Made by a program: the position numbers and the translations under genes. From IMG/VR virus record IMGVR_UViG_3300031228_000007, positions 1 through 50,785 of that record: a stretch of 50,785 nucleotides of DNA. One strand, written 5' to 3'. Positions 12,433 through 38,178 of the stretch are shown piece after piece; the stretch's first letter is position 1, and each line of letters starts with the position of its first letter. The DNA is from a virus. Lineage: Duplodnaviria > Caudoviricetes. The notes under the pieces are model-generated. The model was not told the DNA's origin and ran no database searches. It saw only the letters and a list, made by a program, of their open reading frames with translations.

Positions 12433-12483
12433 GTTCGGGGCGTGCGAACTTTGCTATTGCACGGAAGTTCGTTATGTGCGAAC
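12433..12483. promoter_or_regulatory. Two OL-like operators GTTCG-N7-CGAAC and rightward promoter
   Basis: GTTCGGGGCGTGCGAAC (12433-12449) and GTTCGTTATGTGCGAAC (12467-12483); 12464-12485 is the exact reverse complement of 11967-11988. Confidence 0.82.
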
Positions 12484-12491
12484 AAGACCGC

Positions 12492-23099: not shown

Positions 23100-23109
23100 C
23101 GGTGGTGGC

Positions 23110-24117
23110 GTGATCGTCCGCATCACTCAGCTCGACGGCAAGCTGCCGAACCTAGCGCTGATGCGCTTGTCGGCGTGGCACCGTGAGCAGGGTGACGACG
23201 TGCGGTGGGAGCGAAGCGCGATGCGCCAGCTCGGTGAGCCCGAATATGACCGCGTGTACGGCTCGGCCATCTTCGCGACAACGGCAAAGAAGGTGGCGCT
23301 TTACCGCCAGCAATTCCCCGGCGCCATCGTAGGCGGCTCGGGCGGCGATCCAGCCGTCGGGCCGAAGGTGCGGACGGAATGCTATGTTCCATCGCAGTTC
23401 CGCGGGCTCGACTATTCCGGCTATCCGGATTTCACCGCCTCGCTCGGCTACTGCTCGCGGGGATGCCGTTCCAAGTGCAAGTTCTGCGTGGTGCCCAGCC
23501 AGGAAGGCGCGATCTATGCCGTCGCCTCCGTGGGCCAGATATGGCGCGGCGAGCCCTACCCGAAACACATCCACCTTTTTGATAACGACTTCTTCGGCAA
23601 CCCAGAGTGGCGCGAGGTTGTCGACGAGCTCGTCGCCGGCAATTTCAAGGTGTGCATCAACCAGGGCATCAATGTTCGCCGGATCGGCGAGGAGGAGGCT
23701 GCGGCGATCGCCAGCCTCCAATACAAGGACGACCAGTTCCGCCGACCGCGCCTCTACACTGCATGGGATAATCTCGGCGACGAGCGGGTCTTCTTCCGTG
23801 GGCTCGATTTCCTCACGGCATCCGGGGTCAAGCCGCACCATGTCATGGTCTATATGCTCGTCGGCTATGACCCGCGCGAAACGTGGGAGCGCATTTGGCA
23901 TCGCTACAATCAGATGATCGAGGCCGGGGTGAAGCCTTTCCCGATGGTGCACGACCGTCACCGGCAGGAGCATCCAGACCACTGGCGACTGCTCAAGCGG
24001 TTCCAGAGTTGGGCGGTGTCGCCGGCGCAGGGCAGTTGCCGCTTCGAGGATTTCCGCGCTGACCACCGGGCACCGCAGCCACAAGGCGGGCTGTTCGATG
24101 CGATGGATGCCGCCTAA
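23110..24117 (+). CDS. Phage radical SAM protein
   Basis: LPNLALMRLSAWH N-terminus; SRGCRSKCKFCVVP (CxxxCxxC); DNDFF, QGINVR, VYMLVGY. Confidence 0.88.
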   Translation: MIVRITQLDGKLPNLALMRLSAWHREQGDDVRWERSAMRQLGEPEYDRVYGSAIFATTAKKVALYRQQFPGAIVGGSGGDPAVGPKVRTECYVPSQFRGLDYSGYPDFTASLGYCSRGCRSKCKFCVVPSQEGAIYAVASVGQIWRGEPYPKHIHLFDNDFFGNPEWREVVDELVAGNFKVCINQGINVRRIGEEEAAAIASLQYKDDQFRRPRLYTAWDNLGDERVFFRGLDFLTASGVKPHHVMVYMLVGYDPRETWERIWHRYNQMIEAGVKPFPMVHDRHRQEHPDHWRLLKRFQSWAVSPAQGSCRFEDFRADHRAPQPQGGLFDAMDAA

Positions 24118-24162: not shown

Positions 24163-24510
24163 CTAGAATATCCCGAGGAATCGCCGCCGCGTGTCCCGCC
24201 TCAGCGCCTCCCGATGCAGGTCGAGGCAGCCCCGGTAGATGTGATCCACCGCCGGCGCGCGCTCGTTCGCTTTCTCGAGCTGCCCCGTCTGCTCGATGAA
24301 GCCGACCTGCCACGGTTGGGCGTCGTCATGCCCGTCCGGTAGCTGCTGGGCTTCAGGGAGCGGCGCCGACGGCACGGCGGCAAGCAGCGACGGCGGGATC
24401 AGCCGCTGACAGTTCGGCACACCGCCGGTCACCGCAATGTGACCGCATCCGGCAAGCAGCGCGAATAGCGGCAGCGTTGCTCTGGCCCGCAGGCTGCGAC
24501 AGGATTTCAT
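24163..24510 (-). CDS. o-spanin (Rz1-like lipoprotein)
   Basis: Lipobox LLAGC, Pro-rich, overlaps the 3' part of the i-spanin in another frame. Confidence 0.85.
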   Translation of the reverse strand: MKSCRSLRARATLPLFALLAGCGHIAVTGGVPNCQRLIPPSLLAAVPSAPLPEAQQLPDGHDDAQPWQVGFIEQTGQLEKANERAPAVDHIYRGCLDLHREALRRDTRRRFLGIF

Positions 24511-25526: not shown

Positions 25527-25873
25527 TCCGCCCACTCCGGTAGCGGCACCGTCTGGCCCGCTAGCTTATGGGTGCAATCGCCCAGAAACTGTATCTGCCC
25601 GTCGCAAACGAACGAGTGGCAGCGCTGCGGCTCAGGCGTGATCTTCTCGCCAGCCATGATGCGCGCGTGCTCAGCGTCGGTGATGGGCCGCGTGCCGGTT
25701 ACGAGGATCGAAGGCGAGAAGGTCGGGTGATCAGGGTTGCCGTTATAGCCCCACCGACCCGCTTCCTTAGGCCCGGTCGAAACGGGAATGGCGTGCGCCT
25801 CATCGCAACCGGGACACCAAAAGGCGACCATGCCGCCTTCGAGCGAGCGAAGAATCGGCGACAGCGCGCTCAT
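25523..25873 (-). CDS. DUF6527-like Cys/His metal-binding protein
   Basis: WCPGC...H; WGYNGNPDHPTFSPSILV; RCHSFV.DGQIQFLGDCTH.LAGQTVPLP. Confidence 0.75.
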   Translation of the reverse strand: MSALSPILRSLEGGMVAFWCPGCDEAHAIPVSTGPKEAGRWGYNGNPDHPTFSPSILVTGTRPITDAEHARIMAGEKITPEPQRCHSFVCDGQIQFLGDCTHKLAGQTVPLPEWAE

Positions 25874-26670
25874 CGCCAGCCCCCCGCCTTCAGCGCCGCC
25901 TGAATCGCCTCCGCCTCGCCAGCGATCTTGTCGGCCTTGTCCATGATGTTGATGATGCGCCGAGCCGGGCGGAACTCGGCGCGGGTCGCCTCGCGGTCGC
26001 GCGGCAGATGGCGAGCGAGCGTGTGGCGGCCCTGCTTGTCGCCTGAAAACCAGCCTTCCTCCATGCCGCGGATCATCGTGTCGGCGGCGATGTCCGGCTC
26101 CAGCATCCGGTCAGGGTTGGCTATCAGCGTCCCGCCGAGCCCGAGCTTCTCATCGGCCTTGCGGTAATTCTCCTCCCACGTCGTCTGCGGGTAGCCGCGC
26201 CCGTACCAGGGGTAATAGCGGAAGTTGCGGCGGCGGTAGGCGTCGCTTACGTCCAGCCCTTCGCGAACCGGCTGCATCCGATGCGCCGTCTCGTGCCATG
26301 CCGTCGCCAGCCCGTAAGCCGCCCAAGCGATCGGCCAGTGCGCCATCTTGGACAGCAGGAACTCGAAGCCCTGTACCTGATCGTCGCTGTTGAGCCGCCC
26401 GAGGCCCTTCCTCAGCTCGGCGAAGAAGGCCGGAGCATCGCTCAAACCGCCCGCATCCGCCGTAGGAGCCTCACCAGCGCCCGAAACAGCATCCGCGCCT
26501 GTCCCGAGCCCTTGGCCCGGTGGCGGGGCTGTGGGGGCTTCCAGCGGCGATTTGCGCGCTCCGAGCAAGTCGAGGTGGCGGTGGAAGCCTTCGCGCAAGG
26601 CGAGGTCGTTCCAGCCGTCCTTGAGGTAGGGGCGGAGGAAAGCGTGGATTGGCGTGCGTGGATCGCTCAT
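25870..26670 (-). CDS. Endolysin, glycoside hydrolase family 19-like
   Basis: AYGLATAWHET..MQPVRE, YGRGYPQTTWEENY, GMEEGWF, ARRIIN. Confidence 0.87.
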   Translation of the reverse strand: MSDPRTPIHAFLRPYLKDGWNDLALREGFHRHLDLLGARKSPLEAPTAPPPGQGLGTGADAVSGAGEAPTADAGGLSDAPAFFAELRKGLGRLNSDDQVQGFEFLLSKMAHWPIAWAAYGLATAWHETAHRMQPVREGLDVSDAYRRRNFRYYPWYGRGYPQTTWEENYRKADEKLGLGGTLIANPDRMLEPDIAADTMIRGMEEGWFSGDKQGRHTLARHLPRDREATRAEFRPARRIINIMDKADKIAGEAEAIQAALKAGGWR

Positions 26671-26936
26671 TGCTCGCCTGCCTGAATGCCGCGGTCTTTC
26701 TCAAGCTGCTCGATCCGGCGCGTTGACCGGGCCGAAGTCTCCGCCGCCTGCGTCGTGCGCGTGTCGAGCAGGCTGGCGACGCTGGACTCGATCCGCACCA
26801 CCCGCTCCCGAACGTCGATGATGGCCGTGGCAAGCCAGACGAAGAAGGCGAGCAGGCTGGCCGTGAAGACGCCGAGCAGCGTGATAAGCGCCTTGGTCGC
26901 AAAGCTCTGCGCGCCGTTACCTGTTCCCGGCATCAT
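26667..26936 (-). CDS. Single-TM coiled-coil protein (holin/antiholin-like)
   Basis: LITLLGVFTASLLAFFVWLA then heptad region; immediately upstream of endolysin. Confidence 0.6.
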   Translation of the reverse strand: MMPGTGNGAQSFATKALITLLGVFTASLLAFFVWLATAIIDVRERVVRIESSVASLLDTRTTQAAETSARSTRRIEQLEKDRGIQAGEQ

Positions 26937-27309
26937 CCCCTCCCTTCTTCCCCCGCTTCTCGGCATCCTGCGCTTCCCGATCGGAGGAAAGCCGCCGCTG
27001 CACCTCCTGGTCGATCATCCCCCAGCCTTCCATGATGGCCTTCAAACCCATGACCTCGCCACGCGCTTCGTCCCGTTCGCGGTGGCACTTCTCGATTTCA
27101 GTCTCGGCCGCATCCAGCCGGGTTTCGAGCGACGTGACGCGCTTGGCGAGCCCGCCTGTCAGCACGGCGCCGGCCTCCGCTTCGTCGCGCTTCGCCTCGT
27201 TGCGGAGCCCCACGTAGAGGTTCCCGCGATAGACGAGGAACAGGAAGGCCAGCAGCAGCAGCCCGCCGACTCCAAGCTGGGGGAGTGCCTGAACGATTCC
27301 ATCAAACAT
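26917..27309 (-). CDS. Single-TM coiled-coil protein (lysis accessory)
   Basis: MFDGIVQALPQLGVGGLLLLAFLFLV then coiled coil, 130 aa. Confidence 0.65.
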   Translation of the reverse strand: MFDGIVQALPQLGVGGLLLLAFLFLVYRGNLYVGLRNEAKRDEAEAGAVLTGGLAKRVTSLETRLDAAETEIEKCHRERDEARGEVMGLKAIMEGWGMIDQEVQRRLSSDREAQDAEKRGKKGGDDAGNR

Positions 27310-27778
27310 GCCCTGCCCTGCCCCACGCCCAGCGATACTCGACACCGGACGAGGGGTTGTCCGGCGAATCGTCGGCCGTCGCCAGCGCATTGGCCTTGCG
27401 CGGATCGAGCCATTGGAAAAACGAATCCGCCCCGGCGAGCGCGAACTGCGCCAGCACGAGGAACCACAGCGCCATCCATTTGTGGAACGCGCCGATTTCC
27501 TGATCGAGATAGTAGAGCCATGCCATCGGGAAGATGAGCATGATCGCCACGTCCCAGCGGGTGGCCTTGTTCGCCCAAGCCTTCGCGCAGACGATCAGCA
27601 TGACGAAGAAGTCGGCGAACCAGTAGTGCATCAGCGGGAGGTTGTCGCCGGTGACGAGCCACAGCACCTCGGCCGACGACCAGCTTATCACCAGCGCGGC
27701 CGCGGTGACGTTCCTCCACGCGGAAGGAACGCCGACCAGCAGCACGACGGCGAGCATGAGGCCCGCTTGCCAGCTCAT
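27302..27778 (-). CDS. Polytopic membrane protein (about 5 TM)
   Basis: 158 aa, Trp-rich, largely hydrophobic. Confidence 0.75.
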   Translation of the reverse strand: MSWQAGLMLAVVLLVGVPSAWRNVTAAALVISWSSAEVLWLVTGDNLPLMHYWFADFFVMLIVCAKAWANKATRWDVAIMLIFPMAWLYYLDQEIGAFHKWMALWFLVLAQFALAGADSFFQWLDPRKANALATADDSPDNPSSGVEYRWAWGRAGHV

Positions 27779-27976: not shown

Positions 27977-30142
27977 TCAGGTCGTCGCCCCCCTCACCAC
28001 GCCGAACCGGATGACGATGGCCTCGCTCAACGAGCCCCCGGTAATGTTGCGGACATAGATGACGGCGCTTCCGGCGGCAGCAGCGGCATTGAGGGTGTAC
28101 GAGCCCAGCGTTCCGCCGGACTGATGCTGAAGCGTGAGAATGTCGTTCGCGCCGATCTGCGTATTGGTGAGCGTGAATGAGACGGTGGTGTCGGCCGCAA
28201 GGGCCGCCGCGTTCAGCGTGATCTCGCCGCACATCTCGTTAAGCTCGACGCCGGTTCCCTTGTCCGTCGCCTGAGTGATCGTGCCTCCGTCGCCGACGTA
28301 GAAGCCGGGGTGGCTCCAGTCGATCCGATTGCGGTTGTATGGATCAGTCGTGTCGTGCGTGCTGGTAGCGGCGGGGCGGAAGGTGTCCGCGACTCCTGCG
28401 GCGGTCCCGAGGAACCTCTCATCGACAACCTCGCCGGAGAAGGAGCCTCCGTAAGTCAGGAAGAAATGGGCCGTGGCCGCTCCACCCTGGTTCGCAGGGA
28501 GGTCGGTTTCGTAGCGATTGCGAGCGAGCCTGCGGGCATCCGTGAACGTAATGACGTTGGCGGCGTGCTGGTCCGTGCCCCCCGCATCGGAATAAGCCTC
28601 CTTCGGAATGAAGAAGTAGTTATCCTCGAACACCGCACTGGTGTTGTCGATATTGACAAGGTTCGCGGTGCTGGCCGCCGTCGCCGTGCAGATGAAGCGG
28701 TTGTCACGAACATCGCAGCGGAGACTGTCGGCGGTGTTCGAGTAGAGCAGCCGGGCAGTTCCTCTAACCTCATTACCCTCGAATATGACGCCAGAGTTCG
28801 CCTTGGTGGCGATCGAGCACCAGTTGTCCTTGAGGTCAAGATAGGAGTTTCTGATGGAGGCCCTTGGAACGCTGAGAATAATCGAGAACTTGCCCGTCTC
28901 CGCGCTGCTGATGACGGTGATTTCGTCGAAGGCAACTGTATCGACCGTGTTTTCCAGGCTGGCCCTGAGATCACCGTTCGAGTTGTTGATGAAGCGACAG
29001 TTATCGAACATTATCTCGCCGGTGTTGCTGTCGGCCGTCCCAGCAAAGAGGCTATGCGTCGGCTCGATGTCGAGCCCCACCTTGGGAGCGTGGCCTAGCG
29101 CGCCACTCTTGCCGTAAGTGCCGGTGAACTGTGCGGTTTCGGAGAAGGAGCAGTTTTTGGCGGAGAACCCACGACAGCCGATGACGACAATAGCGCAACG
29201 GGCGTTATATTCAAAGACAGAGTTTGTTACTGTGACATAGCGGGAGACAGTGGCGGTTGGAGCGCCGTCCAGATTTGCTGCGCGGACTCCGATTCCGTCA
29301 TTGGCGAAGTGGTGAGCGTGGACGTTATCTATCTTGACGTAGTAGCAGCTTCTAAGCCTGATGCCGTCCGTGGTGGCCTCGTTTGAGTCCGAGCTGTTCG
29401 TCATCAACTCGACATTGCCGTCGATCTCTAGGTTCTTGATTTCGACGTGCTGGCAATTCAGGAGGCTCATTCCGCACAGGCCGAAAGTGGTGGAGGCGCC
29501 GCGGTCGAAGTCGCCCTTTACGTCGATCTTCGCGCCGTTGCCCTCTATGACGAGACCAGTGCAGTCGAAAAACTCCATGTCGGTGAAGAGGACGCCGTTC
29601 GGAGTCGCGCCGCCAATGATATACTGGTCGATTAGGTAGATGGCGCCGGGCCTCAACCAGACGGTCCCGCCGCCGTTCGCGCTCACAGCCGCGACCGTCG
29701 CTTTCCATGCCACGTAATCGTCCGTCACGCCGTCGCCGACCGCGCCGTAATCGTCCGGCTTGAACACATCCAGATCTACCAGACCGGGGCCGGTGAACAG
29801 CCAAGTGATCGAGCTGGTGCCGATCGTTATGGGGTTCGCGGTCGTCAGCCGGAAATAGGCGCTGGAGTTGATGACGAAGACGGTGGTCCCCTGAACCGCG
29901 TCGAGCGAGCCGTTGAAGTCCCGAGCCCTGTTCCATGTTCCCGTGGCGGCAACATAAATCCCGTTTTCGCTGGCGGTGGTCTGGTCCTTCACCAGCACCC
30001 GGTCCCCGGCAACGACCGCCACGCCGTTGATCGTCTGCTCGCCCGAAAGAGTGATATTTACCGTCGTGACCACGCGCACGGGAGCCTTCACGGCGACCGA
30101 GGTCGTGAGGCCTTCTAGACGGGAGGTGGACGTTGATGGCAT
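27977..30142 (-). CDS. Tailspike/receptor-binding protein with right-handed beta-helix (putative depolymerase)
   Basis: N-terminal anchor GDRVLVKDQTTASENGIY; DDYGAVGDGVTDD pectate-lyase-3-like motif; Asn-rich beta-helix rungs. Confidence 0.87.
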   Translation of the reverse strand: MPSTSTSRLEGLTTSVAVKAPVRVVTTVNITLSGEQTINGVAVVAGDRVLVKDQTTASENGIYVAATGTWNRARDFNGSLDAVQGTTVFVINSSAYFRLTTANPITIGTSSITWLFTGPGLVDLDVFKPDDYGAVGDGVTDDYVAWKATVAAVSANGGGTVWLRPGAIYLIDQYIIGGATPNGVLFTDMEFFDCTGLVIEGNGAKIDVKGDFDRGASTTFGLCGMSLLNCQHVEIKNLEIDGNVELMTNSSDSNEATTDGIRLRSCYYVKIDNVHAHHFANDGIGVRAANLDGAPTATVSRYVTVTNSVFEYNARCAIVVIGCRGFSAKNCSFSETAQFTGTYGKSGALGHAPKVGLDIEPTHSLFAGTADSNTGEIMFDNCRFINNSNGDLRASLENTVDTVAFDEITVISSAETGKFSIILSVPRASIRNSYLDLKDNWCSIATKANSGVIFEGNEVRGTARLLYSNTADSLRCDVRDNRFICTATAASTANLVNIDNTSAVFEDNYFFIPKEAYSDAGGTDQHAANVITFTDARRLARNRYETDLPANQGGAATAHFFLTYGGSFSGEVVDERFLGTAAGVADTFRPAATSTHDTTDPYNRNRIDWSHPGFYVGDGGTITQATDKGTGVELNEMCGEITLNAAALAADTTVSFTLTNTQIGANDILTLQHQSGGTLGSYTLNAAAAAGSAVIYVRNITGGSLSEAIVIRFGVVRGATT

Positions 30143-30182
30143 AATGCTCTCCGAAAGGACGCGCGATGCGGTGGGCTAGCAG

Positions 30183-30344
30183 ATGAGGATTTGGGTGGCG
30201 GTCTTGTTGTTGGCAGGCTGTTCTCAACCCGCCCCGAGACCGGTGACAGCAGAGTCGAACAAGATTATGGAAGACCGGCCACCGCTCGATTTTGCCGAGC
30301 CGGTTAACGACACGGCTGGGCTGGAACCGTGGTCGAGAGACTGA
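30183..30344 (+). CDS. 53-aa lipoprotein carrying a copy of the N-terminal peptide of ejection protein 33136-36003 (candidate superinfection exclusion)
   Basis: MRIWVAVLLLAGC lipobox (Cys13); residues 32-52 RPPLDFAEPVNDTAGLEPWSR vs RPPIDFAEPVEDVQGIEPWQR. Confidence 0.85.
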   Translation: MRIWVAVLLLAGCSQPAPRPVTAESNKIMEDRPPLDFAEPVNDTAGLEPWSRD

Positions 30345-30381: not shown

Positions 30382-30672
30382 ATGAAGCCGCACATCCGGC
30401 TATCTCTCAATCAGCGGGACAGCCTGCTTGTTCTGCTCGTCCTCTTCTGGGCGCCGTTCTGGCTTGGCCTTGGGGTCATTGTTTCCGAGAACTGGTCCGT
30501 GTGGGTCTCAATCTTCATGGTCGGCGGCGGCATCGCGGCAGGCGCCTGCTGGATATTTTCCCAGATATACCGAGCAACCAATCGCTATGAACGAGCCACC
30601 CTCGGTTTCGCGCTGGGCGTGATCGTCCTTCTGTCGCTGGCGTTTACTCAGGGGCTCCCGCCAGAATATTAG
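30382..30672 (+). CDS. 3-TM inner membrane protein (candidate superinfection exclusion)
   Basis: 96 aa, three hydrophobic helices; antisense to late operon; TTTCAA-17-TATCGG-7-ATG suggests a leaderless promoter. Confidence 0.75.
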   Translation: MKPHIRLSLNQRDSLLVLLVLFWAPFWLGLGVIVSENWSVWVSIFMVGGGIAAGACWIFSQIYRATNRYERATLGFALGVIVLLSLAFTQGLPPEY

Positions 30673-33139
30673 TCAGGTCCGGGGCGCGTTCGGGCGCCAC
30701 TTCTCCCGGCCCCCACCAGAAGCCCTGTCCCTGATCTCTCGCCCGGCGCTCCATCATTCGCCAGCTCCGACGATAGCTCGGATCGATCTCCTGCTGGATT
30801 TGGTCCGCAAGCAATCGGTCGATCGCAGCGCGAGCGTACCAGAGATTTTGTCCCGGCACATTCTGACGAAGCGTATTCGCCAAGGTCCAGCCGGCTCGCG
30901 GTCTTGGGTTAACATCGGCGCCGGCCGCGTGGAGAGCGCTCCGCCCTATCCCACTCAGCGCCCCGGCAGTGCGCCCGATGTCGGAAACAAGTGGTCCGGC
31001 GGCGTATTCGTCCCATCCTCCGAACCTGTTCTCGACCGTCATGCCGAGAAGATCTCCGACAATGCCGGAGCCGCCGCCCATGACCATTGCGTAACCCCAG
31101 AAGTTCGGGTCTTCCATCGGGCGAGGATCACGCCCCTTGGCTATTTCCTTGAGCTGCACCGCCATCGCGCCCATCAATGTGACCGGGATGACCAGCGACA
31201 GGAAATAGCCAGCCTTCCCTCCCAAACCGGGCTGGTCGAGCATCCTCCCGCCGTGCCGAATCATCATCGACACCGTGAACGTCTTGAACATCAGCGGCGA
31301 GGAACGGATCAGCTCGCCAATGACCGTGCCCTTCCGGGCCTGAGCATTGATATAGGCTCGCGTCTGTAGGTCCGGAACGGGAACCGCGAAGTCACCTTCG
31401 TTGTGGATCATTTCGAGCAACCGGTCGCCAAGCTCGCGATCGGCGACATTCTGCGGCTTGATCCAGACTACTCCTCCGTCTTTTTCGAGCGGCGTGGCGC
31501 GCACCGCCTCCCACGCCTTCGCGCCGATGCCGTAGCGGTTGAGCGCGGCACGAAAGGCCGGCTCCAGCCTGTCAAAGTCCTTGCCCCGCTCGTTGGTGAG
31601 GTGGGTAAGCCAGACAATACCGTTCGCCATCCTGCCGGCATCGGTCCATGCGTTGAGCCCCGACGTTCGCAAAACTCCGTCCGCGATGCGCCGCGACACT
31701 TCGCCCGTCAGTTCTTCGGCTAGGAACCTGTTCTGCCCCGCGACTGTGGTAGTCCAGGTTTCGGCGACCACCCCCAGCCGGGCCGCTAACCTGCGATCGG
31801 CTTGGCTCGCCGGGTTTATCATCTTGAGATAATCGCGAAGCAGACTAGCCTGAGGGAGCCCATTGAACCGCCGCGTCGTCACGCCGAAGCCGATGTCGCC
31901 AACGGCGGTGAGCGTGGCGCTGCCGAGCTTCGATGCAGCCGCGACCGAACGATAGGCGGAAAAGGCCAAGGCGAGATTGCGGTTCTCGGGCTGCCTCAGA
32001 GCCCCGGAATATTCATCCCACAGCCGCTGAACGACCAAAGCCTCCTGCTGCGCCTTGTCGCGGGTGCGAAGCTGGCGCGGCTCGAACAGCCTTTCATCGC
32101 TGGTGATGGTGTCCTTCAGCCAACGCACTCCCGTTTCCGGGTTCGGTCCCAATATCTCCATCGCGGCGATATTGCGCGACATGCCCTTGATATGGCCCAT
32201 CATCGCGTCATAGGCGGTGCCGCGACCGAACTGCTCGCGCGAGGCTTTCCAGTCGTTGAAGCTCTTGTAATGCAGGAAGCGGTGCTCGCCCATCCGGTTG
32301 GCCATCGCTCGCCGGCCGAACTGCCCCGGCGTCCGGCTCAACGCACCGTCGCTGGCGATGTTGTCGAAAGCACCCCGCATCGCGCGAGTGAACGCCGCAT
32401 CGGTGAAGGGCTGTCCCGTATTGGGATCGATCATCCGCTCGCGCGCGATCCTTGGCCCCTCCGCGGCGAACCACGCATCGAAGCCAGCCTCCGCCACCGC
32501 GCGGCTGTCATGCGCCTGAGGCAGCCCCCACCGTTCCAGCTTGGCGATGCTCGCTCCGGCTGCGTTGGCTCGTTGGCGCAGGGATTCCGAAGCCCGGAAC
32601 CAACCGTCCGTCAGCTCGTCTGCCGCCACACTGCCGGTTTTCTCCCCGAAGGCCGCACGGCCGATCTCATCCATCTGCGCCGGATTGCGGAGCCGCCCCA
32701 GCGCATTTGAGTGGTGGGCGGCCATGATGCCGTCCATTTCGGCAAACGCCCGCGCCTCGATTGCCCGTCGTCGTGCATCGACGCGAGACAGCAGGGTCCG
32801 CGCTGCTCGCGGGTTGACTGGTCCCTTTGGTCCTTCTCCGGGCGGCGGAACGTCGCCACCTCGCCCGCCGCGTCCCCATCCTTCTCCACCGCCGCGAAGC
32901 CAGCCGTCCATCCGGCGCTGCGCGTCGATCTGGCGCAAAGTGTTCAGCCGGCGCTGCCGAGCCTCGAAATCCAGAGCATCGACAGTGCGCGTAGAGGCCA
33001 GAGCTTCCGCCGCGTCTGCTCCCATGTTCCGCCGTAGCTGTTCGGTCAGCTCCTCGAAAAGCCCCGTAGCCTTCGCGGCCTGCTCCTCGTTGATCGCGCC
33101 GGATTCCAGCAGCTCGGGGATGCAACGGTTCAGGCTCAC
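30644..33139 (-). CDS. Internal virion/DNA ejection protein
   Basis: About 830 aa helical protein with C-terminal hydrophobic stretches, last of three large genes after the nozzle; GTG 33139 via GTGA coupling. Confidence 0.75.
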   Translation of the reverse strand: MSLNRCIPELLESGAINEEQAAKATGLFEELTEQLRRNMGADAAEALASTRTVDALDFEARQRRLNTLRQIDAQRRMDGWLRGGGEGWGRGGRGGDVPPPGEGPKGPVNPRAARTLLSRVDARRRAIEARAFAEMDGIMAAHHSNALGRLRNPAQMDEIGRAAFGEKTGSVAADELTDGWFRASESLRQRANAAGASIAKLERWGLPQAHDSRAVAEAGFDAWFAAEGPRIARERMIDPNTGQPFTDAAFTRAMRGAFDNIASDGALSRTPGQFGRRAMANRMGEHRFLHYKSFNDWKASREQFGRGTAYDAMMGHIKGMSRNIAAMEILGPNPETGVRWLKDTITSDERLFEPRQLRTRDKAQQEALVVQRLWDEYSGALRQPENRNLALAFSAYRSVAAASKLGSATLTAVGDIGFGVTTRRFNGLPQASLLRDYLKMINPASQADRRLAARLGVVAETWTTTVAGQNRFLAEELTGEVSRRIADGVLRTSGLNAWTDAGRMANGIVWLTHLTNERGKDFDRLEPAFRAALNRYGIGAKAWEAVRATPLEKDGGVVWIKPQNVADRELGDRLLEMIHNEGDFAVPVPDLQTRAYINAQARKGTVIGELIRSSPLMFKTFTVSMMIRHGGRMLDQPGLGGKAGYFLSLVIPVTLMGAMAVQLKEIAKGRDPRPMEDPNFWGYAMVMGGGSGIVGDLLGMTVENRFGGWDEYAAGPLVSDIGRTAGALSGIGRSALHAAGADVNPRPRAGWTLANTLRQNVPGQNLWYARAAIDRLLADQIQQEIDPSYRRSWRMMERRARDQGQGFWWGPGEVAPERAPDLTNILAGAPE

Positions 33140-36003
33140 AGGCACCCCCTCAGGGCATCGACAGCGGCCCGATCGCCGTCCAGCCGCTCAAGGATCGTGT
33201 CTAGAGATTCCTCGCCGGTTTCTTCGATGATGAAGGTCTTGTTCGCCAGTGCGGGATCGTTGGCGATGTCGGCGGCGAGGTCGTGTTCCAAGCTGTCGAG
33301 TTGTTCGCGGATGCCGTCTCCGCCGGGATCGTCGAAGCGGGCTAGTTCTTCTGAGCCGACTTGAACACTCTCAGCAGCCTCTCCGCCTTCGCGCGCGTCG
33401 GGACGCTGAGCGCCGGGTCGTCCGTCATCCGGGCCAACGTCAAAATCTTCCGGTTCAAATCTGGTATCATCGCCACCCCTATACACTGGGTCGCCGCTTT
33501 CCGCCAGCGCCGTCCTGCTCAAATCGGCATAGACCAAATCGCCCGCCTCATCCCAGGCTTCCGCCAGCGTCCCACGAAAATCGCGAGAGGCAGAGAGCGC
33601 CGCAGCGCGAGCGAGGATTTCATCGTCACGGGCGAGCTTCGTGCCCCATTGCGCTTCGGCCGCATCGTGTATTTCGTCCATCAGCTCCCGAAGTCCCCGA
33701 TCCTGCTCCGCCCGCGCCCGAGCTTCCGCCACAGGCTCGTCGGCCAATGTGTAAAGCGGACGCCCGCGAAGCTCGTTGTCGATCGCCTCGTAGAAGGCGC
33801 TCAAACCCTCAGTCAGTTCCTCTCCGCTGTCGATCTGCGCCTTGATGCGAGGAAAATATCCAGCCTCGATAGCCGCCTCGAAAACCCGATCCGGCGCGAA
33901 GTCCTGTTGCTCGGCGATACCGCGCCTTGCACGTGGCGAGCGGTTGCGAAGGAGCTTGCGCTCCCCCCTCCTCGCGAAGCCCCTTTGCAGCGCCAGCCCC
34001 ATGCTCGTCAGGTCGCCCTCGACATCTTCGATCCCGCCGCGCGCCGCGACGAAATCCAGTAGGGATCGCGGGCGATCTCGTTGCGCCTCCCTCGCCTCCA
34101 ACGCCTCTACCCGGCGTCGAAGCTCGGCATCGACGGCCCCCGGATTCTGTGCCTCGAACCGCTCCATCTCCGGCGTGCGCTCACCTCGCATATATGCATC
34201 GGCAAACGGGGCCGCGTCAGGGTCGGCATCGTTATATTGGCGATAGACGGCGCGCTGTGCTGCGGTCCATTGCTCGTTGCTCTCGAATTGATCCCGCCTC
34301 AGTGTTGGCACCGGTTCGAACCTCGCCAGTTCGGGGCGCGTGGACGGCTGCTCTCCTGCCAGCCCCCGAGAAAGCGCCAGCGCCTCCATCTCGTCCGCCT
34401 CGCCACCATCCCCTTCTGGCCGAGCGGTCGCTTGCGCTTCAGGCACAGCCGCGCCACGCTCGGCTCCGGTTCGACGCCGGAAATTGCGGACGTACTGCTG
34501 CGTCTCCGTTGGCAAATAGGCTTCCCAATTGTCTGGATTCCCGGCCCTCTCGGCTCGCGCTATCGCACCGCGAACGCCGGTTCCCCGCCTCGCGCTTCCC
34601 GGTCCCGCATTGTAGGCCGCCGCCGCCATCGAAGGATCGCCGAACACACGAAGCTGCTCGCGATAATATGCCTGCCCGAGCCGGATATTGTATGCCGCAT
34701 CCGTCCGATAGCGGCGCTCGTCAAACGGGATTCCGGCCAGCCTTGCCGCCTCCGGCGCCGTGCCGGGCATGACCTGAGCCGGGCCTATCGCGCCAGCCGG
34801 GCTGGTCCTGAAGCTGCCGTCGCGATTGGTGCCGCCCTCTATCCCGATGATGGCCGCCCATTGCCGACCGAAGTCCGGCGTCGCGCCGGTCGGCACTCTC
34901 GGCACGATTGGAGCCGACGCCGCACCTGCTGGCGCACGGACGCTGACCGGCGGCGCTCCCGAGACAATCCTGTCGAGCGCAGCGGCAAGAGAGTCGGCGT
35001 GAGCATCATCCCCCACCCTTCCCGGATCGAAAGGAGAGAGCCCGCGGACCTCCGCGTCTCGCTCGATCACGTTGACCGCCGCCCGGATTTCCGGCGTCCA
35101 GTTCTCCGCCGGCACGCTCGCGCGAAGCATATCCACAAGAAGCGTGTCATCGACCGTCGCCGCACCTGCCCAGCGCTGCTGAATGCTCTCCGGCATCGCC
35201 TCGAAAGCCGACGATATGAATCGGTCGTACAATGGCCCGGCAGAACGAGCCCCGGCCCCGACAGCCTCGATGCCTCCCCGGAAAGCCGCGCCGGCCCCGC
35301 CAGCGAACAGTACCGAGCGGGCGCTATCCATGAACGTCATTTCCTCGCCGATCTCGGCGTAATTGGAGGAAATGAAGGGCTGCGACACCGCCTCGATAAT
35401 CATGTTCTCGACCGCCGCGCGCCCGATCGCACCCATCACCGTGCGAGAGGCGCCACCGAACGGCATCGTCCAGAAATTGACTGGATCTTCGAATGCGCCA
35501 GCAACGCCGCCAATGAAGCTGCCGACAGTTCCGGTTACTCCGGCGCCAGCCTGAACGCCCCTGATCCGTGACAGCCTTTCCGACGCGCGCCCGTTGACCT
35601 GACGCACGAACTCCTCCGGCGTGTCGGGAATACCCTGAAGGAAGGCTGGATCGGTCTGCCGCCTTCGTCTGACTTCTTCGAAGATCAGCCGCCGCATCTC
35701 CTCGCTGGCGGGAACCGTCGTATTGTAGGCGAAGGTTTCCCCGCTCGGCAGGTCTTCAGGATTGAGGAAGCGGCGATTATCGCCCCACCGCGCTCCCGCT
35801 GCATCGAGCGCGTCGATGATCGGCCGAAAGGCTTCCTGCCGGTTGCGGGACAGAGAATCGGTGTTGCCGACTATCTGCATCTCCTCGCGTGTGGCGCGGA
35901 AGTTTTCGAGAAAACTGGTCTGGGGGACCGGGCGTTGCCAAGGCTCGATGCCCTGAACGTCCTCCACCGGCTCGGCGAAGTCGATGGGTGGCCGGGTTGC
36001 CAT
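33136..36003 (-). CDS. Internal virion/ejection protein with soluble lytic transglycosylase (SLT) domain
   Basis: IIGIEGG...SPAGAIGPAQVMPGTA...NIRLGQAYY...AAAAYNAGPG...ETQQYV. Confidence 0.85.
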   Translation of the reverse strand: MATRPPIDFAEPVEDVQGIEPWQRPVPQTSFLENFRATREEMQIVGNTDSLSRNRQEAFRPIIDALDAAGARWGDNRRFLNPEDLPSGETFAYNTTVPASEEMRRLIFEEVRRRRQTDPAFLQGIPDTPEEFVRQVNGRASERLSRIRGVQAGAGVTGTVGSFIGGVAGAFEDPVNFWTMPFGGASRTVMGAIGRAAVENMIIEAVSQPFISSNYAEIGEEMTFMDSARSVLFAGGAGAAFRGGIEAVGAGARSAGPLYDRFISSAFEAMPESIQQRWAGAATVDDTLLVDMLRASVPAENWTPEIRAAVNVIERDAEVRGLSPFDPGRVGDDAHADSLAAALDRIVSGAPPVSVRAPAGAASAPIVPRVPTGATPDFGRQWAAIIGIEGGTNRDGSFRTSPAGAIGPAQVMPGTAPEAARLAGIPFDERRYRTDAAYNIRLGQAYYREQLRVFGDPSMAAAAYNAGPGSARRGTGVRGAIARAERAGNPDNWEAYLPTETQQYVRNFRRRTGAERGAAVPEAQATARPEGDGGEADEMEALALSRGLAGEQPSTRPELARFEPVPTLRRDQFESNEQWTAAQRAVYRQYNDADPDAAPFADAYMRGERTPEMERFEAQNPGAVDAELRRRVEALEAREAQRDRPRSLLDFVAARGGIEDVEGDLTSMGLALQRGFARRGERKLLRNRSPRARRGIAEQQDFAPDRVFEAAIEAGYFPRIKAQIDSGEELTEGLSAFYEAIDNELRGRPLYTLADEPVAEARARAEQDRGLRELMDEIHDAAEAQWGTKLARDDEILARAAALSASRDFRGTLAEAWDEAGDLVYADLSRTALAESGDPVYRGGDDTRFEPEDFDVGPDDGRPGAQRPDAREGGEAAESVQVGSEELARFDDPGGDGIREQLDSLEHDLAADIANDPALANKTFIIEETGEESLDTILERLDGDRAAVDALRGCL

Positions 36004-38178
36004 CTACTGCCCCCGCGGCGGCGCTCGCCATACAGGACCGCGTGGAGGATTGGCCGGGCGCTGCGGCAACGCGGGCCGCGCTTGGGTCGTCGGCCTTCTT
36101 TGCTGCTGCTGGCGCTGCTGAGGCGGGGCGCGGAAGGGCTCGATCCGCCGGATATTGAGGCGGAACGGTCGGCCCTCCCGCGTCATCAGCACCCGCCCGC
36201 TCCAATGGAACTCGTACACGCCATCGGACACGGCCATCGGCACGAACTGGCCCCTGATCTCGTCGGTGCTGACCACGCTGCCGTCTGCCGACGCCGGGAT
36301 GCCATTGATTGCCCCGGACGGCCACCGCCCTCCCGTCCGTGCGATCGGCAGATTAGCCATCCGGCGATGGAACTCGTCCTGTGACATACCGGCGGGGAGC
36401 ACCATGCCAGGATATTCTCCATCCGCAGCGCGTGGTCCCCAAGTCCAGCGGCCCATGCCGCCGCCGCTTCCACTTCCGCCAAGAGCGGTGCTAACAGCCG
36501 CCGCGAAGTCGGGGCTGCTGAAGTCCGGTCGCGTCGATTGGCCCGACGCCCGAAGACGCTCGGCATAGATCGCGCGGGCGCTTTCAAGCACCCCGGCGAC
36601 GAAATCCGGCTGAAGCCGTGTCAACGAAGGTCCGATATGAGCCGTGAACCAGGCATGGCTGATCGAGTTGAAGCCGGCCAGCGTTCCGTCATCCCGTTCG
36701 AGCTGCTGCGGCAACAGAGCGCGCGACTCCATGCCCCGCACGATCAGGCCGCGGACATTCGCCGGCATACGGATCGCGTGCTGGAAAGTCGCATCTTCGG
36801 GCGCGATCTCACGCGCCGCGCGAATTGCCGCTTGCGGGTCCAGTTGCCCGATCGCGGCGACGTTGTTGATCGCCTGCATCCGCCCCTGCGCGCCAGACGC
36901 TATCAGCTCCTGGTAGCGGGAAACCTCCTGCGGCGTGAAAAACTGGAACCGTCCGATCTCGCGCTGCGCCGCATAGGAAGCCGTCAGCCGCTCGCGGATC
37001 GACGCCGGCTCGGCGAGATTGACCGGAGCGACATCCCCGCCTCGGCGGGCATGTTCCCCGAGCGCATCGCCCTCCTCGGCCTGCTGGCGCCGTGTCAGGA
37101 TCGACTGAAGATGGTCCCGCGCCACGACATCATCGGGGCTGGCATCCTCGCCACCTTGGGCGATCCTCGCATCCAGTGCGCGAATCGCCGTCGATATTTC
37201 GAGCGCGGTTGCGTTCCGATACTCGCGGTTGACCCTGTGCTGCACTCTGGCCTTAGCAATGTCGTACACGTCAAGCGGAAGCTGCGATGCCGCCGCCCGC
37301 TGCTGCATCGCCTCCAGTTCTTCCTCCGTGATTGTCGGATCACCGTCCCTCAGGCGGCGCTGGAACAGGTCGATCTCGGCGCGGGCGGCGCTTTGGGTCG
37401 CCGCCAGTTCCCGCCGTGCATCTGCTTCACGGACCCTGATCTCGCTGTCGGAATTGTCCAGAAGCCGCGCCGCGTCGTCGGGGTCTATCCACTGATTGAG
37501 CGCCCCACTGCTGATGATCTCGCGGGCAGCGGAGGGATTCTGCTCGATCAGCCCGCCGAGATAGGACTTCACCAGCCCCGCCTGCTGCTCTCGCACCAGC
37601 CGCTCGGCAAGATCGGCGGGGATTCCCTCAGTTACCATGATGGTGGAGCGGGTCACGTCCAGATAGTTTTGCAGCGCCGCCGGGTCCGGGCGGGTCTGAA
37701 GCTGGTTCCTAAGGAGCCTCCCCGTCTCCTCGACATTCGCGACGGCAAGCTCCCTGCGTTGTCCGATCTCCCACACGTCCTCTGAGGCAAAAACGCGAGC
37801 GCGGAGCTGCTCGACATTCGTAGAGAAGCTCTCGCGGACCCTCCGATCACGAATGCTGCTCAGGAACTCACCCGTTCGCTGCTCGACATAGCCGCGGACG
37901 CCGGTAAGGTGCCCGCTTCCTCCCGGCGCCGGATTCGACCGTCTCTGGTTGGCGTCCTGCTCAATCTCACCAGCAAGGCGGGCAAACTCCACGCCGGCCT
38001 GTGCCGCCTGCCGACGCTGGTCAAGCTCGGCGAGCTGTATCGCGGCCTGCTGACCGGCGCGGCCCGTCCCAGCAACAGCCTCTCCCGGAGCTCCGGCGTT
38101 CCGCACCGTCGCCACCTGGCGGCGGGAAACCGGCGTCGGGCGCGGCCCCAAATCCTCTATGGTCGGAAGGCGGGCCAC
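36004..38178 (-). CDS. Internal virion/ejection protein
   Basis: GTG 38178 (TAGTG coupling), 724 aa Ala/Gln/Arg-rich helical; the 5' extension in the ORF track overlaps upstream genes. Confidence 0.75.
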   Translation of the reverse strand: MARLPTIEDLGPRPTPVSRRQVATVRNAGAPGEAVAGTGRAGQQAAIQLAELDQRRQAAQAGVEFARLAGEIEQDANQRRSNPAPGGSGHLTGVRGYVEQRTGEFLSSIRDRRVRESFSTNVEQLRARVFASEDVWEIGQRRELAVANVEETGRLLRNQLQTRPDPAALQNYLDVTRSTIMVTEGIPADLAERLVREQQAGLVKSYLGGLIEQNPSAAREIISSGALNQWIDPDDAARLLDNSDSEIRVREADARRELAATQSAARAEIDLFQRRLRDGDPTITEEELEAMQQRAAASQLPLDVYDIAKARVQHRVNREYRNATALEISTAIRALDARIAQGGEDASPDDVVARDHLQSILTRRQQAEEGDALGEHARRGGDVAPVNLAEPASIRERLTASYAAQREIGRFQFFTPQEVSRYQELIASGAQGRMQAINNVAAIGQLDPQAAIRAAREIAPEDATFQHAIRMPANVRGLIVRGMESRALLPQQLERDDGTLAGFNSISHAWFTAHIGPSLTRLQPDFVAGVLESARAIYAERLRASGQSTRPDFSSPDFAAAVSTALGGSGSGGGMGRWTWGPRAADGEYPGMVLPAGMSQDEFHRRMANLPIARTGGRWPSGAINGIPASADGSVVSTDEIRGQFVPMAVSDGVYEFHWSGRVLMTREGRPFRLNIRRIEPFRAPPQQRQQQQRRPTTQARPALPQRPANPPRGPVWRAPPRGQ

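What the first reader, a model, noticed from the sequence alone, without database searches (positions are those of the whole stretch)
30183..30344. Lipoprotein displaying a decoy copy of the phage's own ejection-protein N-terminus: candidate mimicry-based superinfection exclusion
Seen: an unannotated 53-aa ORF antisense to the late operon, MRIWVAVLLLAG-C-SQPAPRPVTAESNKIMEDRPPLDFAEPVNDTAGLEPWSRD. It has a lipobox, a short Pro-rich tether, then 21 residues (nt 30276-30338) matching residues 4-24 of the SLT-bearing ejection protein (nt 35932-35994, RPPIDFAEPVEDVQGIEPWQR). They share 15/21 identities plus two L/I swaps. Eight of the 15 identical residues use different codons (ccg/ccc, gat/gac, ttt/ttc, gtt/gtg, ggg/ggc, gaa/gag, ccg/cct, aga/cgc), so the similarity is kept at protein level rather than being a fresh DNA duplication. 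Established: podovirus ejection proteins assemble a trans-envelope channel, and P22 sieA sits between the ejection genes and the tailspike and blocks DNA entry. Inference: the lysogen anchors this peptide in the periplasm (Ser at +2 suggests outer membrane). There it competes for the partner that normally binds the ejection-protein N-terminus and jams the ejectosome of related phages. I know of no described exclusion system that works by self-peptide mimicry.
Basis: partly seen in the sequence, partly recalled or inferred. Interest (0 to 1): 0.93.

Follow-up and report, generated by a model that had tools for sequence, protein, structure and literature searches.

The report
Phage lipoprotein copying its ejection-protein arm
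A soil podophage carries a tiny lipoprotein gene whose tail copies the flexible N-terminal arm of the phage's own DNA-ejection protein, and a structure model docks that tail onto the neighbouring ejection protein, so it may block entry of rival phages by acting as a decoy; this is untested at the bench.

Summary
ORF 30183-30344(+) encodes a 53-aa protein with a lipobox (LAG-C13). Its residues 29-52 match residues 1-24 of the SLT ejection protein (33136-36003, -): 16/24 identical, E 7e-10. Synonymous sites are scrambled, so this is protein-level similarity.

New here:
- The shared stretch equals the low-confidence, unstructured N-terminal arm in the AlphaFold2 model of the ejection protein. It carries a motif kept in the closest subfamily.
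- The ORF heads a two-gene antisense cassette with a 3-TM protein, which is conserved in one relative. The site holds other small membrane or secreted genes in some relatives.
- A complex model docks exactly the copied residues (31-41, 44, 47-52) onto the C-terminal domain of the gp15-position ejection protein. Score 0.62, best control 0.00.

Against:
- The lipoprotein has no homologue anywhere searched, so co-variation cannot be tested.
- No other related locus has a second arm copy (0 of 71).
- No integrase was found and there are no expression data.
- The signal peptide is unusually short.

Verdict: a plausible decoy-type entry blocker, supported in silico only. A recombination by-product remains a serious rival.

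The parts
30116..30145 (+). sigma-70-like promoter candidate (TAGACG-18-CATAAT with TG), 38 nt upstream of the lipoprotein ORF, overlapping the start of the tailspike gene
   Evidence: 1 site found; shuffles give a mean of 0.5; a consensus match only
30183..30221 (+). P0001 residues 1-13: short signal peptide MRIWVAVLLLAG plus lipobox Cys13 (L-A-G-C)
   Evidence: a strict signal+lipobox pattern matched 1 of 2321 ORF/start combinations in the window, this one
30222..30266 (+). P0001 residues 14-28: Pro-rich linker SQPAPRPVTAESNKI
   Evidence: not in the predicted interface; weak likeness to the QPAPAPAP stretch of the L006 secreted protein
30267..30344 (+). P0001 residues 29-53 plus stop: copy of the ejection-protein N-terminal arm (MEDRPPLDFAEPVNDTAGLEPWSRD)
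   Evidence: predicted contact residues 31-41, 44, 47-52
30382..30672 (+). P0003, 96-aa protein with three hydrophobic segments, ending PPEY; second gene of the antisense cassette
   Evidence: homologue at the same position and orientation in L006 (26% identity end to end, E 5e-8, also ends PPEY); no family match
35932..36003 (-). codons 1-24 of the SLT ejection protein: the N-terminal arm that is copied
   Evidence: pLDDT 44-52 over residues 1-20, folded domain from about residue 29; motif P-[ILF]-D-[FW]-x-E-P-V in the closest relatives
33136..36003 (-). P0002, 955-aa ejection protein: arm, conserved helical N-domain (about 25-350), SLT domain (400-474), variable middle, conserved C-terminal end
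36004..38178 (-). 724-aa helical internal virion protein in the T7 gp15 gene position; predicted binding partner of the copied peptide
   Evidence: gene order; AF2 mean pLDDT 85; best fold match cyanophage A4 pre-ejectosome, not significant (E 0.037); complex model
36166..36849 (-). codons 444-671 of the gp15-position protein: span that holds the predicted interface residues
   Evidence: 23 of 44 interface residues identical in the closest relative L007 against 241 of 686 overall; not more conserved than the rest across 21 homologues (p 0.39)
30644..33145 (-). 833-aa virion structural protein (phrog_684), last ejection-module gene before the cassette
   Evidence: E 6e-156; 69% identical homologue in L006
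27977..30142 (-). tailspike (beta-helix), first gene after the cassette

Best explanation
ORF 30183-30344 is a real accessory ('moron') gene for a small exported lipoprotein. It is co-transcribed with a 3-TM inner-membrane protein (30382-30672), antisense to the virion genes.

Its C-terminal 24 residues are a paralogous copy of the flexible N-terminal arm of the phage's own SLT-bearing ejection protein.

In the incoming virion's ejectosome, that arm is inferred to dock on the C-terminal domain of the gp15-position ejection protein. This would resemble the way T7 gp16-N tapes gp15 C-termini in the periplasm.

The lipoprotein, tethered in the periplasm of an already infected (or lysogenic) cell, would occupy that site on gp15-position proteins ejected by later-arriving phages of the same kind. 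That would hinder assembly of the trans-envelope conduit. This is superinfection exclusion by a self-derived decoy, probably working together with the membrane protein.

Shown: the sequence copy, its protein-level character, the anatomy of the cassette, and an in-silico docking pass.

Inferred: export and lipidation, expression, the native arm's partner, and any exclusion phenotype.
For: 1. The match is far beyond chance and unique in the genome.
2. Synonymous sites are at or near saturation (pS 0.65-0.71) while pN is 0.26-0.27. Of 14 identical residues with alternative codons, 8 use different codons. The peptide, not the DNA or RNA, has been kept.
3. The tail is closer to its own phage's arm (16/24) than any orthologous arm is to either copy (4-14 of 24; Smith-Waterman 97 against at most 59).
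4. The copied stretch coincides with a structural module, the low-confidence N-terminal arm (pLDDT 44-52) that precedes a confidently folded domain.
5. The stretch contains a motif found in the first 30 residues of 13 of 145 family representatives, against 23 of 4849 background windows.
6. Signal peptide plus lipobox: the strict pattern matched 1 of 2321 ORF/start combinations. A promoter-like site lies just upstream, and local G+C is lower (0.58-0.59 against 0.62-0.64 in the flanks).
7. The partner gene P0003 is conserved in position and orientation in L006. The same site holds small membrane or secreted ORFs in L026, L027 and L070. L004 and L005 have no gap there.
8. Complex model of the gp15-position protein (21-row alignment) with P0001 residues 14-53: ipSAE 0.57/0.62/0.64, best of 3 controls 0.00. 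The mark was reached by 58 of 80 solved complexes and 2 of 110 mismatched pairs. The runs agree in at least 74% of contacts and the partner's pLDDT is at least 59.
9. The contacts fall on residues 31-41, 44 and 47-52, which is the copied segment and not the linker. Of these 18 residues, 13 are identical in the native arm, including the tightest contacts W50, P49, F37 and D36 (L35, also among the tightest, is Ile in the arm).
10. No solved homologue of the receptor exists by sequence, so a pass from memory is unlikely.
11. Precedents: T7 gp16-N is periplasmic after ejection and tapes gp15 C-termini (PMC8954989, passages). P22 SieA, encoded between gene 16 and the tailspike gene, blocks injection, and escape mutations lie in ejection proteins (PMC10883804, abstract and section 13). 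T5 Llp is a small exclusion lipoprotein of a lytic phage (abstracts in the listing).
Against: - No homologue of the lipoprotein was found in 50,697 phage records, in IMG/VR (one spurious signal-peptide hit), in 5.8 billion protein clusters of similar length, or in 84 related loci. There is therefore no conservation evidence that it is a gene and no co-variation test.
- Gene callers did not call it.
- The signal peptide is very short, with Cys at position 13. The PROSITE lipobox rule, as I recall it, asks for positions 15-35.
- GC3 is 0.67-0.68, below most phage genes here (0.71-0.90), though close to P0003 (0.70-0.72).
- The closest relative (L006/L007) has an unrelated 129-aa secreted protein at this position, with no likeness to its own arm.
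- None of the 4 cassette-bearing relatives, and none of the 71 related loci with an ejection-protein N-terminus in hand, has a second arm copy. The best score there is 26.6 bits, against 42.7 in the window.
- No integrase was found.
- Predicted interface residues of the receptor are not more conserved than the rest across 21 homologues (p 0.39).
- Identity is not significantly enriched at interface positions of the peptide (13/18 against 3/7, p 0.20).
- A silent relic that still has the arm's sequence would dock in a model just as well, so the docking pass does not show expression or function.
Confidence: 0.42

Rival explanations
1. Recombination by-product. A short 5' piece of an ejection-protein gene, from this phage long ago or from a moderately diverged relative recently, was joined in frame behind a lipoprotein signal in the accessory cassette. 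The ORF may be made, but the tail has no decoy role. Any function lies in the lipoprotein as such, or in P0003.
For: - The match starts exactly at the start Met of the ejection gene, as expected for a captured gene end.
- The ORF is an orphan.
- The cassette's first gene is replaceable: L006 has an unrelated 129-aa protein there. This fits rapid, mosaic turnover at this site.
- If the donor was a foreign functional ejection gene, low dN/dS needs no selection on the tail.
- Weak likeness of the signal and QPAPxP stretch to the L006 protein (9 of 1000 shuffles reach the score) suggests an older secreted-protein gene into which the piece was inserted.
Against: - The copied piece ends exactly at the boundary of the flexible arm. 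It is in frame, on the display side of a signal peptide and linker.
- It keeps every motif position of the subfamily. Its two changes at family-conserved positions fall at residues 2-3 (A-S/T to E-D), which matter only at a true N-terminus.
- No known orthologous arm is as close to it as the resident one.
- The docking model places precisely this piece on an ejectosome protein.
Confidence: 0.3
2. Not a gene. The ORF is a chance open frame in G+C-rich DNA over a decaying relic of an ejection-gene fragment. Only P0003 is the cassette's product.
For: - It was not called by gene finders.
- There is no homologue.
- The signal peptide is short.
- GC3 is the lowest of the genes compared.
- 53-codon open frames are common in this window (100 ORFs of at least 40 aa in 13 kb).
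Against: - A neutral relic with saturated synonymous sites should not keep 16/24 residues.
- The lipobox pattern is rare (1 of 2321).
- The 240 bp between the tailspike start and P0003 would otherwise be empty, whereas the relative L006 has a gene there that abuts the P0003 homologue.
- A promoter-like site precedes this ORF, not P0003.
Confidence: 0.15
3. The tail targets something other than the incoming ejectosome. It might target a host periplasmic factor that the arm normally engages. Or it might meet gp15-position protein released at lysis, protecting progeny from wasteful ejection into debris, as is proposed for T5 Llp (recalled). Or, if it is not exported, it might act in the cytoplasm as a placeholder during virion assembly.
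For: - The arm is a short linear motif in a disordered segment, a type of element that often binds several partners.
- Export is unproven because the signal is short.
- The lifestyle is unresolved.
Against: - The only partner tested docks with a clear margin over the controls.
- No host is known, so no host factor could be tested.
- A cytoplasmic role does not fit the lipobox.
Confidence: 0.13

Closest known systems
P22 SieA (superinfection exclusion, P22-like prophages)
   Same: It is encoded between the last ejection-protein gene and the tailspike gene. It blocks DNA delivery of phages of its own kind, and its genetic targets are ejection proteins (PMC10883804, abstract and section 13). P0003 is a small polytopic membrane protein at the equivalent place.
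   Different: SieA is one inner-membrane protein with no likeness to the ejection proteins. Neither P0001 nor P0003 matches any family, and P0003 lacks the SieA motif FxRYPxEAxxFNK quoted in that paper. The candidate here is a lipoprotein bearing a copy of an ejection-protein segment.
T5 Llp (and, recalled, Cor of phi80/N15)
   Same: It is a small lipoprotein made by the infecting phage and tethered to the periplasmic face of the outer membrane. Its gene lies next to host-recognition genes, and it excludes further infection (abstracts of bioRxiv 10.64898/2026.03.26.714494 and PMC9586334 in the listing).
   Different: Llp binds the host receptor FhuA, not a phage protein, and does not resemble any virion protein. 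P0001 has no Pfam or PHROG match.
T4 Sp (spackle) and Imm
   Same: This is a pair of small envelope proteins that stop entry of later phage. Sp acts on a virion-borne cell-wall enzyme and Imm acts at the membrane (one passage of PMC11436027; details recalled).
   Different: Sp is an inhibitor with its own fold, not a copy of a phage segment. The two genes are not a cassette (recalled).
T7 gp16-N 'molecular tape' on gp15
   Same: An N-terminal part of the lytic-domain ejection protein lies in the periplasm after ejection and cements the C-terminal regions of gp15 (PMC8954989, passages). The model here puts the arm copy on the C-terminal domain of the gp15-position protein.
   Different: No sequence or significant fold similarity to T7 gp15/gp16 was found. 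In T7 the tape is residues 157-228, behind the lytic domain. Here the arm is residues 1-24 and the SLT domain is central.
o-spanin Rz1
   Same: It is a small, Pro-rich outer-membrane lipoprotein of phages. The language-model search gave an Rz1 cluster at 0.89, which is a lead only.
   Different: There is no Pfam Rz1 match. The gene lies outside the lysis cassette and antisense to it. Its neighbour has three TM segments and no periplasmic coiled coil. A separate lysis module (endolysin 25870-26670, TM plus coiled-coil ORFs) and another lipoprotein (24163-24510) exist.

Membership tests
Bacterial lipoprotein (signal peptidase II substrate) | Lipobox [LVI][ASTVI][GAS]C after a hydrophobic stretch, with a positive charge near the N-terminus | tested here: met
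   M-R-IWVAVLLL-A-G-C13. The strict pattern matched 1 of 2321 ORF/start combinations in the window.
Bacterial lipoprotein (signal peptidase II substrate) | Cys at a usual distance from the start (positions 15-35 in the PROSITE rule, recalled) | tested here: not met
   Cys is residue 13, and an in-frame stop two codons upstream forbids a longer N-terminus.
Bacterial lipoprotein (signal peptidase II substrate) | Actual lipidation, cleavage and membrane sorting | not testable with these tools
P22 SieA family | Sequence homology to SieA types A-C, including the motif FxRYPxEAxxFNK (PMC10883804, section 13) | tested here: not met
   P0003 (96 aa) has no such motif and no match in Pfam, PHROGs, PADLOC or NCBIfam. 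No direct alignment to a SieA sequence was made.
P22 SieA family | Gene between the last ejection gene and the tailspike gene | tested here: met
Superinfection exclusion systems in general | Expression in the infected or lysogenic cell, and protection against the same or related phage | not testable with these tools
   Only the source soil-metagenome DNA runs hold the sequence. No integrase was found.
T5 Llp / Cor exclusion lipoproteins | Sequence homology | tested here: not met
   P0001 gave 0 Pfam and 0 PHROG families at E <= 0.01 and no tblastn match in 50,697 phage records.
o-spanin (Rz1) | Rz1 family match, or a gene embedded in or next to an i-spanin gene in the lysis cassette | tested here: not met
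   The Atlas lead of 0.89 is below the tool's own 0.9 line.
T7-type ejection (internal virion) proteins, for P0002 and the 36004-38178 product | Gene order portal ... tail tubular A/B, small internal protein, large helical protein, lytic-domain protein, then fibre or spike | tested here: met
   (phrog_394, phrog_376, phrog_418, SLT domain, tailspike).
T7-type ejection (internal virion) proteins, for P0002 and the 36004-38178 product | Sequence or fold similarity to T7 gp15/gp16 | tested here: inconclusive
   No significant match. 6yt5_G scored E 3.0. The best hit for the gp15-position protein is the cyanophage A4 pre-ejectosome at E 0.037. The profile found nothing significant among solved structures.

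The most novel reading that the evidence does not exclude
A phage protects its infected cell by displaying, on a periplasmic lipoprotein, a copy of a docking arm taken from its own ejection machinery. The decoy captures the gp15-position protein of later-arriving virions, so their trans-envelope DNA conduit cannot be completed. This would be superinfection exclusion by self-derived competitive mimicry. My literature searches did not find this principle described.
Probability: 0.4. Interest if true: 0.85.

Novelty: new variant of a known kind. Interest (0 to 1): 0.72.

Why it matters
If true, this adds a new principle to phage-phage competition. Exclusion would come not from hiding a receptor (Llp, Cor) or from a dedicated membrane blocker (SieA, Imm), but from recycling a piece of the phage's own ejection apparatus as a competitive decoy.

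It would also point to a specific, previously unknown contact in a non-T7 podophage ejectosome: the N-terminal arm of the lytic-domain protein on the C-terminal domain of the gp15-position protein. That contact can be tested with two peptides and one recombinant domain, without knowing the host.

Short self-derived peptides that jam DNA delivery would be useful tools for dissecting ejectosome assembly. They also suggest a search strategy for finding more such exclusion genes: small secreted ORFs that copy a virion-protein terminus.

Tried and rejected
- **Chance match:** rejected (E 7e-10 for the pair; the only second hit in the genome).
- **Fresh DNA duplication or gene conversion:** rejected. 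Nucleotide identity is 46/75 and synonymous sites are near saturation. No similarity extends beyond the coding piece.
- **RNA-level or antisense function of the repeat:** rejected for the same reason. The longest identical runs are 8 and 11 nt.
- **o-spanin reading:** rejected.
- **Homologue hunts for P0001.** None found anything: phages by tblastn, IMG/VR (the one hit, L003, is an actinophage lipoprotein signal), 5.8 billion clusters, 84 related loci.
- **Homologue hunts for P0003.** IMG/VR found none and the cluster search found only itself. The L006 homologue was found by position and confirmed by BLASTP.
- **Single-protein scans for relatives of P0002 and the phrog_684 protein:** nothing. 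Alignment-based scans worked.
- **GenBank phages:** they share only the SLT domain with P0002, plus one 34% hit to residues 116-325.
- **My automatic gap rule.** It flagged 11 of 79 loci.
  - L009 and L011 were artefacts of the rule.
  - L006, L026, L027 and L070 have small membrane or secreted ORFs in the gap.
  - L018, L020, L028, L080 and L087 I did not resolve.
- **Fold searches:** no significant match for either model.
- **Interface conservation and interface-versus-identity tests:** no signal (p 0.39; p 0.20).
- **Sequencing runs:** no RNA holder listed. Only two DNA runs of one soil sample, the likely source, hold the stretch.
- **PADLOC and NCBIfam:** nothing significant.
The contigs of the closest P0002 homologues (P0004, P0005, P0007 and others), where a co-variation test might have been possible, could therefore not be read.
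- **Supplements** of the papers were not opened. Table S2 and Fig. S3 of PMC10883804 might bear on the SieA comparison.
Other candidate partners (P0002 N-domain, phrog_684 protein, small internal protein, nozzle) were not tested either.
Full report
**What the window is.** The window is a complete IMG/VR virus record of 50,785 bp (CheckV estimate 100%, no end repeats). Its right half, on the minus strand, is a T7-like virion module:
- terminase 48353-49948
- portal 46275-47918
- tail tubular A and B, 41646-42290 and 39004-41649
- a small internal virion protein 38178-38630 (phrog_418)
- a 724-aa protein 36004-38178 in the gp15 position
- the 955-aa SLT-bearing protein P0002, 33136-36003
- an 833-aa structural protein 30644-33145 (phrog_684)
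- a beta-helix tailspike 27977-30142

A lysis region follows the spike. It holds an endolysin-like gene 25870-26670, ORFs with a TM segment plus coiled coil, and a second lipoprotein 24163-24510. No tyrosine or serine integrase is present, so a temperate lifestyle is not shown. A distant relative does lie inside a 146-kb Maricaulis MAG contig (L004).

**The observation.** The 500 bp between the phrog_684 gene and the tailspike gene hold no sizeable minus-strand ORF but two plus-strand ones:
- P0001 (30183-30344, 53 aa): MRIWVAVLLLAGCSQPAPRPVTAESNKIMEDRPPLDFAEPVNDTAGLEPWSRD
- P0003 (30382-30672, 96 aa), with three hydrophobic segments and ending PPEY

P0001 residues 29-52 align with P0002 residues 1-24, with 16/24 identical and E 7e-10. 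It is the only second copy in the genome. The alignment starts at Met29 against Met1.

Nucleotide identity is 46/75, pS is 0.65-0.71 and pN is 0.26-0.27. Of the 14 identical residues that have synonymous alternatives, 6 use the same codon and 8 a different one. I judge that to be about what independent codon choice would give. DNA similarity stops at the ends of this piece. So the likeness is at protein level and is not recent.

**Is the ORF a gene?**

For:
- A stop two codons upstream fixes the N-terminus.
- The N-terminus has one basic residue, ten hydrophobic residues and L-A-G-C. A strict signal-plus-lipobox pattern matched only this one of 2321 ORF/start combinations in the window.
- A sigma-70-like site (TAGACG-18-CATAAT) ends 38 nt upstream.
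- G+C dips to 0.58-0.59 across the cassette.
- The neighbour P0003 has a homologue of the same length, orientation and C-terminal PPEY at the same site in the closest relative L006 (26% identity, E 5e-8). In L006 a 129-aa secreted protein abuts it upstream.
- That L006 protein is not similar to P0001 by BLASTP. It does share VLLLA..QPAPxP at the signal and linker (Smith-Waterman 43; 9 of 1000 shuffles reach it).

Against:
- P0001 has no homologue in any collection searched.
- It was not called by gene finders, whereas P0003 was.
- Its Cys is at position 13, which is short for a lipoprotein signal (rule recalled).
- Its GC3 is 0.67-0.68, against 0.71-0.90 for most genes.

**The site is a recurrent accessory slot.** I fetched 80 IMG/VR loci with a phrog_684 homologue and added earlier loci. 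Of these, 79 could be scored. In 68 the fibre or spike gene follows within 200 bp, as it does in L004 and L005. Of the 11 flagged loci:
- L006, L026, L027 and L070 carry small membrane or secreted ORFs there. L070 also carries a tRNA-Arg.
- L009 and L011 were artefacts of my rule.
- Five were left unresolved.

None of the accessory ORFs in those four loci resembles a large protein of its own locus. A scan of 71 loci for a second copy of their own ejection-protein N-terminus gave nothing above 26.6 bits, against 42.7 bits for the window. The arm copy is therefore unique to this phage among what could be read.

**What is copied.** The N-domain of P0002 defines a large family: 876 representatives at E <= 0.001 and 37 at E <= 1e-30. 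The family has variable lytic and cargo domains behind it (Pfam accessions). In the closest members the extreme N-terminus reads M-A-S-R-A-P-I-D-[FW]-x-E-P-V...G-L-x-P, followed by the near-invariant P-x-P-Q-T-G-F.

A loose form of the motif occurs in the first 30 residues of 13 of 145 representatives, against 23 of 4849 background windows.

P0001's tail keeps R, P, [IL], D, F, E-P-V, G, [LI] and P. It differs at positions 2-3 (E-D instead of A-S/T). It also shares with the resident P0002 the lineage-specific A10, E20, W22 and R24.

The tail is 16/24 identical to the resident arm. Nine orthologous arms are 6-14 of 24 identical to that arm and 4-12 of 24 to the tail.

AlphaFold2 with a 65-row alignment gives mean pLDDT 73. 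Residues 1-20 score 44-52, and a confident helical domain starts at about residue 29. The copied piece is therefore exactly the flexible arm in front of the folded domain.

**A predicted partner.** In T7, gp16-N is periplasmic after ejection, and its residues 157-228 act as a 'molecular tape' on the C-terminal regions of gp15 (PMC8954989, passages). By that analogy I used the single complex job on the gp15-position protein (724 aa, 21-row alignment A5) with P0001 residues 14-53.

Result: the model supports binding.
- ipSAE was 0.57, 0.62 and 0.64 (median 0.62), and the best of 3 controls was 0.00.
- The mark was reached by 58 of 80 solved complexes and 2 of 110 mismatched pairs. The tool notes these counts hold only roughly, because my own alignment was used.
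- The runs agree in at least 74% of contacts, and the partner's pLDDT is at least 59.
- The confident contacts on the peptide are residues 31-41, 44 and 47-52. This is the copied segment, not the linker. W50, P49, L35, F37 and D36 have the lowest expected error.
- Of these 18 residues, 13 are identical and 2 are I/L swaps in the native arm.
- On the receptor, the contacts lie in residues 444-472, 520-526, 565-567, 593-596 and 630-671.

That receptor region is a confidently modelled alpha/beta C-terminal domain (AF2 mean pLDDT 85). No solved relative of the receptor exists by sequence. Its best fold hit is a cyanophage pre-ejectosome chain, which is not significant (E 0.037).

Caveats:
- It is one model.
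- The native arm and the other candidate partners were not run.
- Receptor interface residues are not more conserved than the rest (p 0.39). In the closest relative, however, 23 of 44 are identical against 241 of 686 overall.
- A silent relic with the same letters would dock equally well.

**Reading.** The most economical account of all this is as follows. An accessory cassette encodes an exported lipoprotein that displays the ejection protein's docking arm in the periplasm, next to a small inner-membrane protein. The only gp15-position proteins such a lipoprotein can meet are those ejected by later-arriving virions, or those released at lysis.

That gives exclusion by competitive decoy. It matches in position and target logic what P22 SieA does to gp16/gp20 (PMC10883804). 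It matches in protein type what T5 Llp does at the outer membrane (abstracts). It does not require lysogeny, because T5 makes Llp early in lytic infection (abstract of bioRxiv 10.64898/2026.03.26.714494).

I put this at 0.42. The main rival, at 0.30, is a recombination by-product. The start at Met1 and the orphan status fit a captured gene end, and low dN/dS needs no selection if the donor was a foreign functional gene. Against it stand several points:
- The piece has exact modular boundaries.
- It is in frame on the display side of a signal peptide.
- All motif positions are retained while positions 2-3 changed.
- The resident arm is the nearest known relative of the tail.

'Not a gene' gets 0.15, and another target or role gets 0.13.

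**Novelty.** Three full-text searches combining superinfection exclusion with lipoprotein and ejection protein, with mimic, moron and periplasm, and with decoy and ejectosome found no description of exclusion by a copy of a virion-protein segment. Only the listings and the named passages were read. A 2026 paper describes a bacterial periplasmic effector that arrests DNA entry (HXS; PMC13128918, abstract), which is a different principle. I therefore class the finding as a new variant of a known kind (entry-blocking exclusion). It rests on one metagenomic genome and on in-silico evidence.

Noticed in passing
window 33136-36003 and proteins P0004-P0159: P0002 belongs to a large family of ejected proteins (876 representatives at E <= 0.001). 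They share a conserved helical N-domain and a conserved C-terminal end of about 70 residues ending R-x-C-L. The middle is variable: different cell-wall hydrolase domains and added enzyme or toxin-like cargo domains, judged by the precomputed Pfam accessions. This resembles 'polyvalent' injected proteins.
   Followed up: partly
window 24163-24510 (-): A second lipoprotein gene (115 aa, ...LFALLAGCG..., Pro-rich mature part) lies at the far end of the lysis region. It is a candidate o-spanin. The i-spanin-like ORFs are 26667-26966 and 26917-27390 (TM plus coiled coil).
   Followed up: partly
window 30382-30672 (+) and L006 4969-5265 (-): The 3-TM cassette protein keeps a C-terminal PPEY, and FWAP in the first hydrophobic segment, across 26% overall identity. 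By the positive-inside rule the PPEY end would face the periplasm. There is no family match anywhere.
   Followed up: partly
L026 8410-8601, L027 8424-9217, L070 6571-7132: Other relatives carry unrelated small membrane or secreted genes at the same slot between the phrog_684 gene and the fibre gene, and in L070 also a tRNA-Arg(ccg). This looks like a hot spot for accessory genes.
   Followed up: partly
window 23092-24117 (+): A radical-SAM domain protein (phrog_9298, E 1e-46) is encoded just beyond the lysis region, on the opposite strand. I did not examine it. A recent paper links rSAM-matured periplasmic effectors to blocking of phage DNA entry in bacteria (PMC13128918, abstract only). No link is shown here.
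   Followed up: no
window 12474-13439 (+): A 321-aa protein made of about five repeated helix-turn-helix / sigma-70 region 4-like units (many overlapping Pfam HTH hits). This is an unusual architecture for a phage regulator.
   Followed up: no
window 28550-29600: G+C falls to 0.54-0.58 inside the tailspike gene. The spike is unrelated to that of the closest relative L006 beyond the N-terminus. This is consistent with a swapped receptor-binding part.
   Followed up: no
window 1-24000: No integrase (PF00589, PF00239) was found in a record rated 100% complete. The replication and recombination genes present are a primase-helicase, a YqaJ-like recombinase, a RuvC-like resolvase and a DNA methylase. 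The lifestyle is unresolved.
   Followed up: partly
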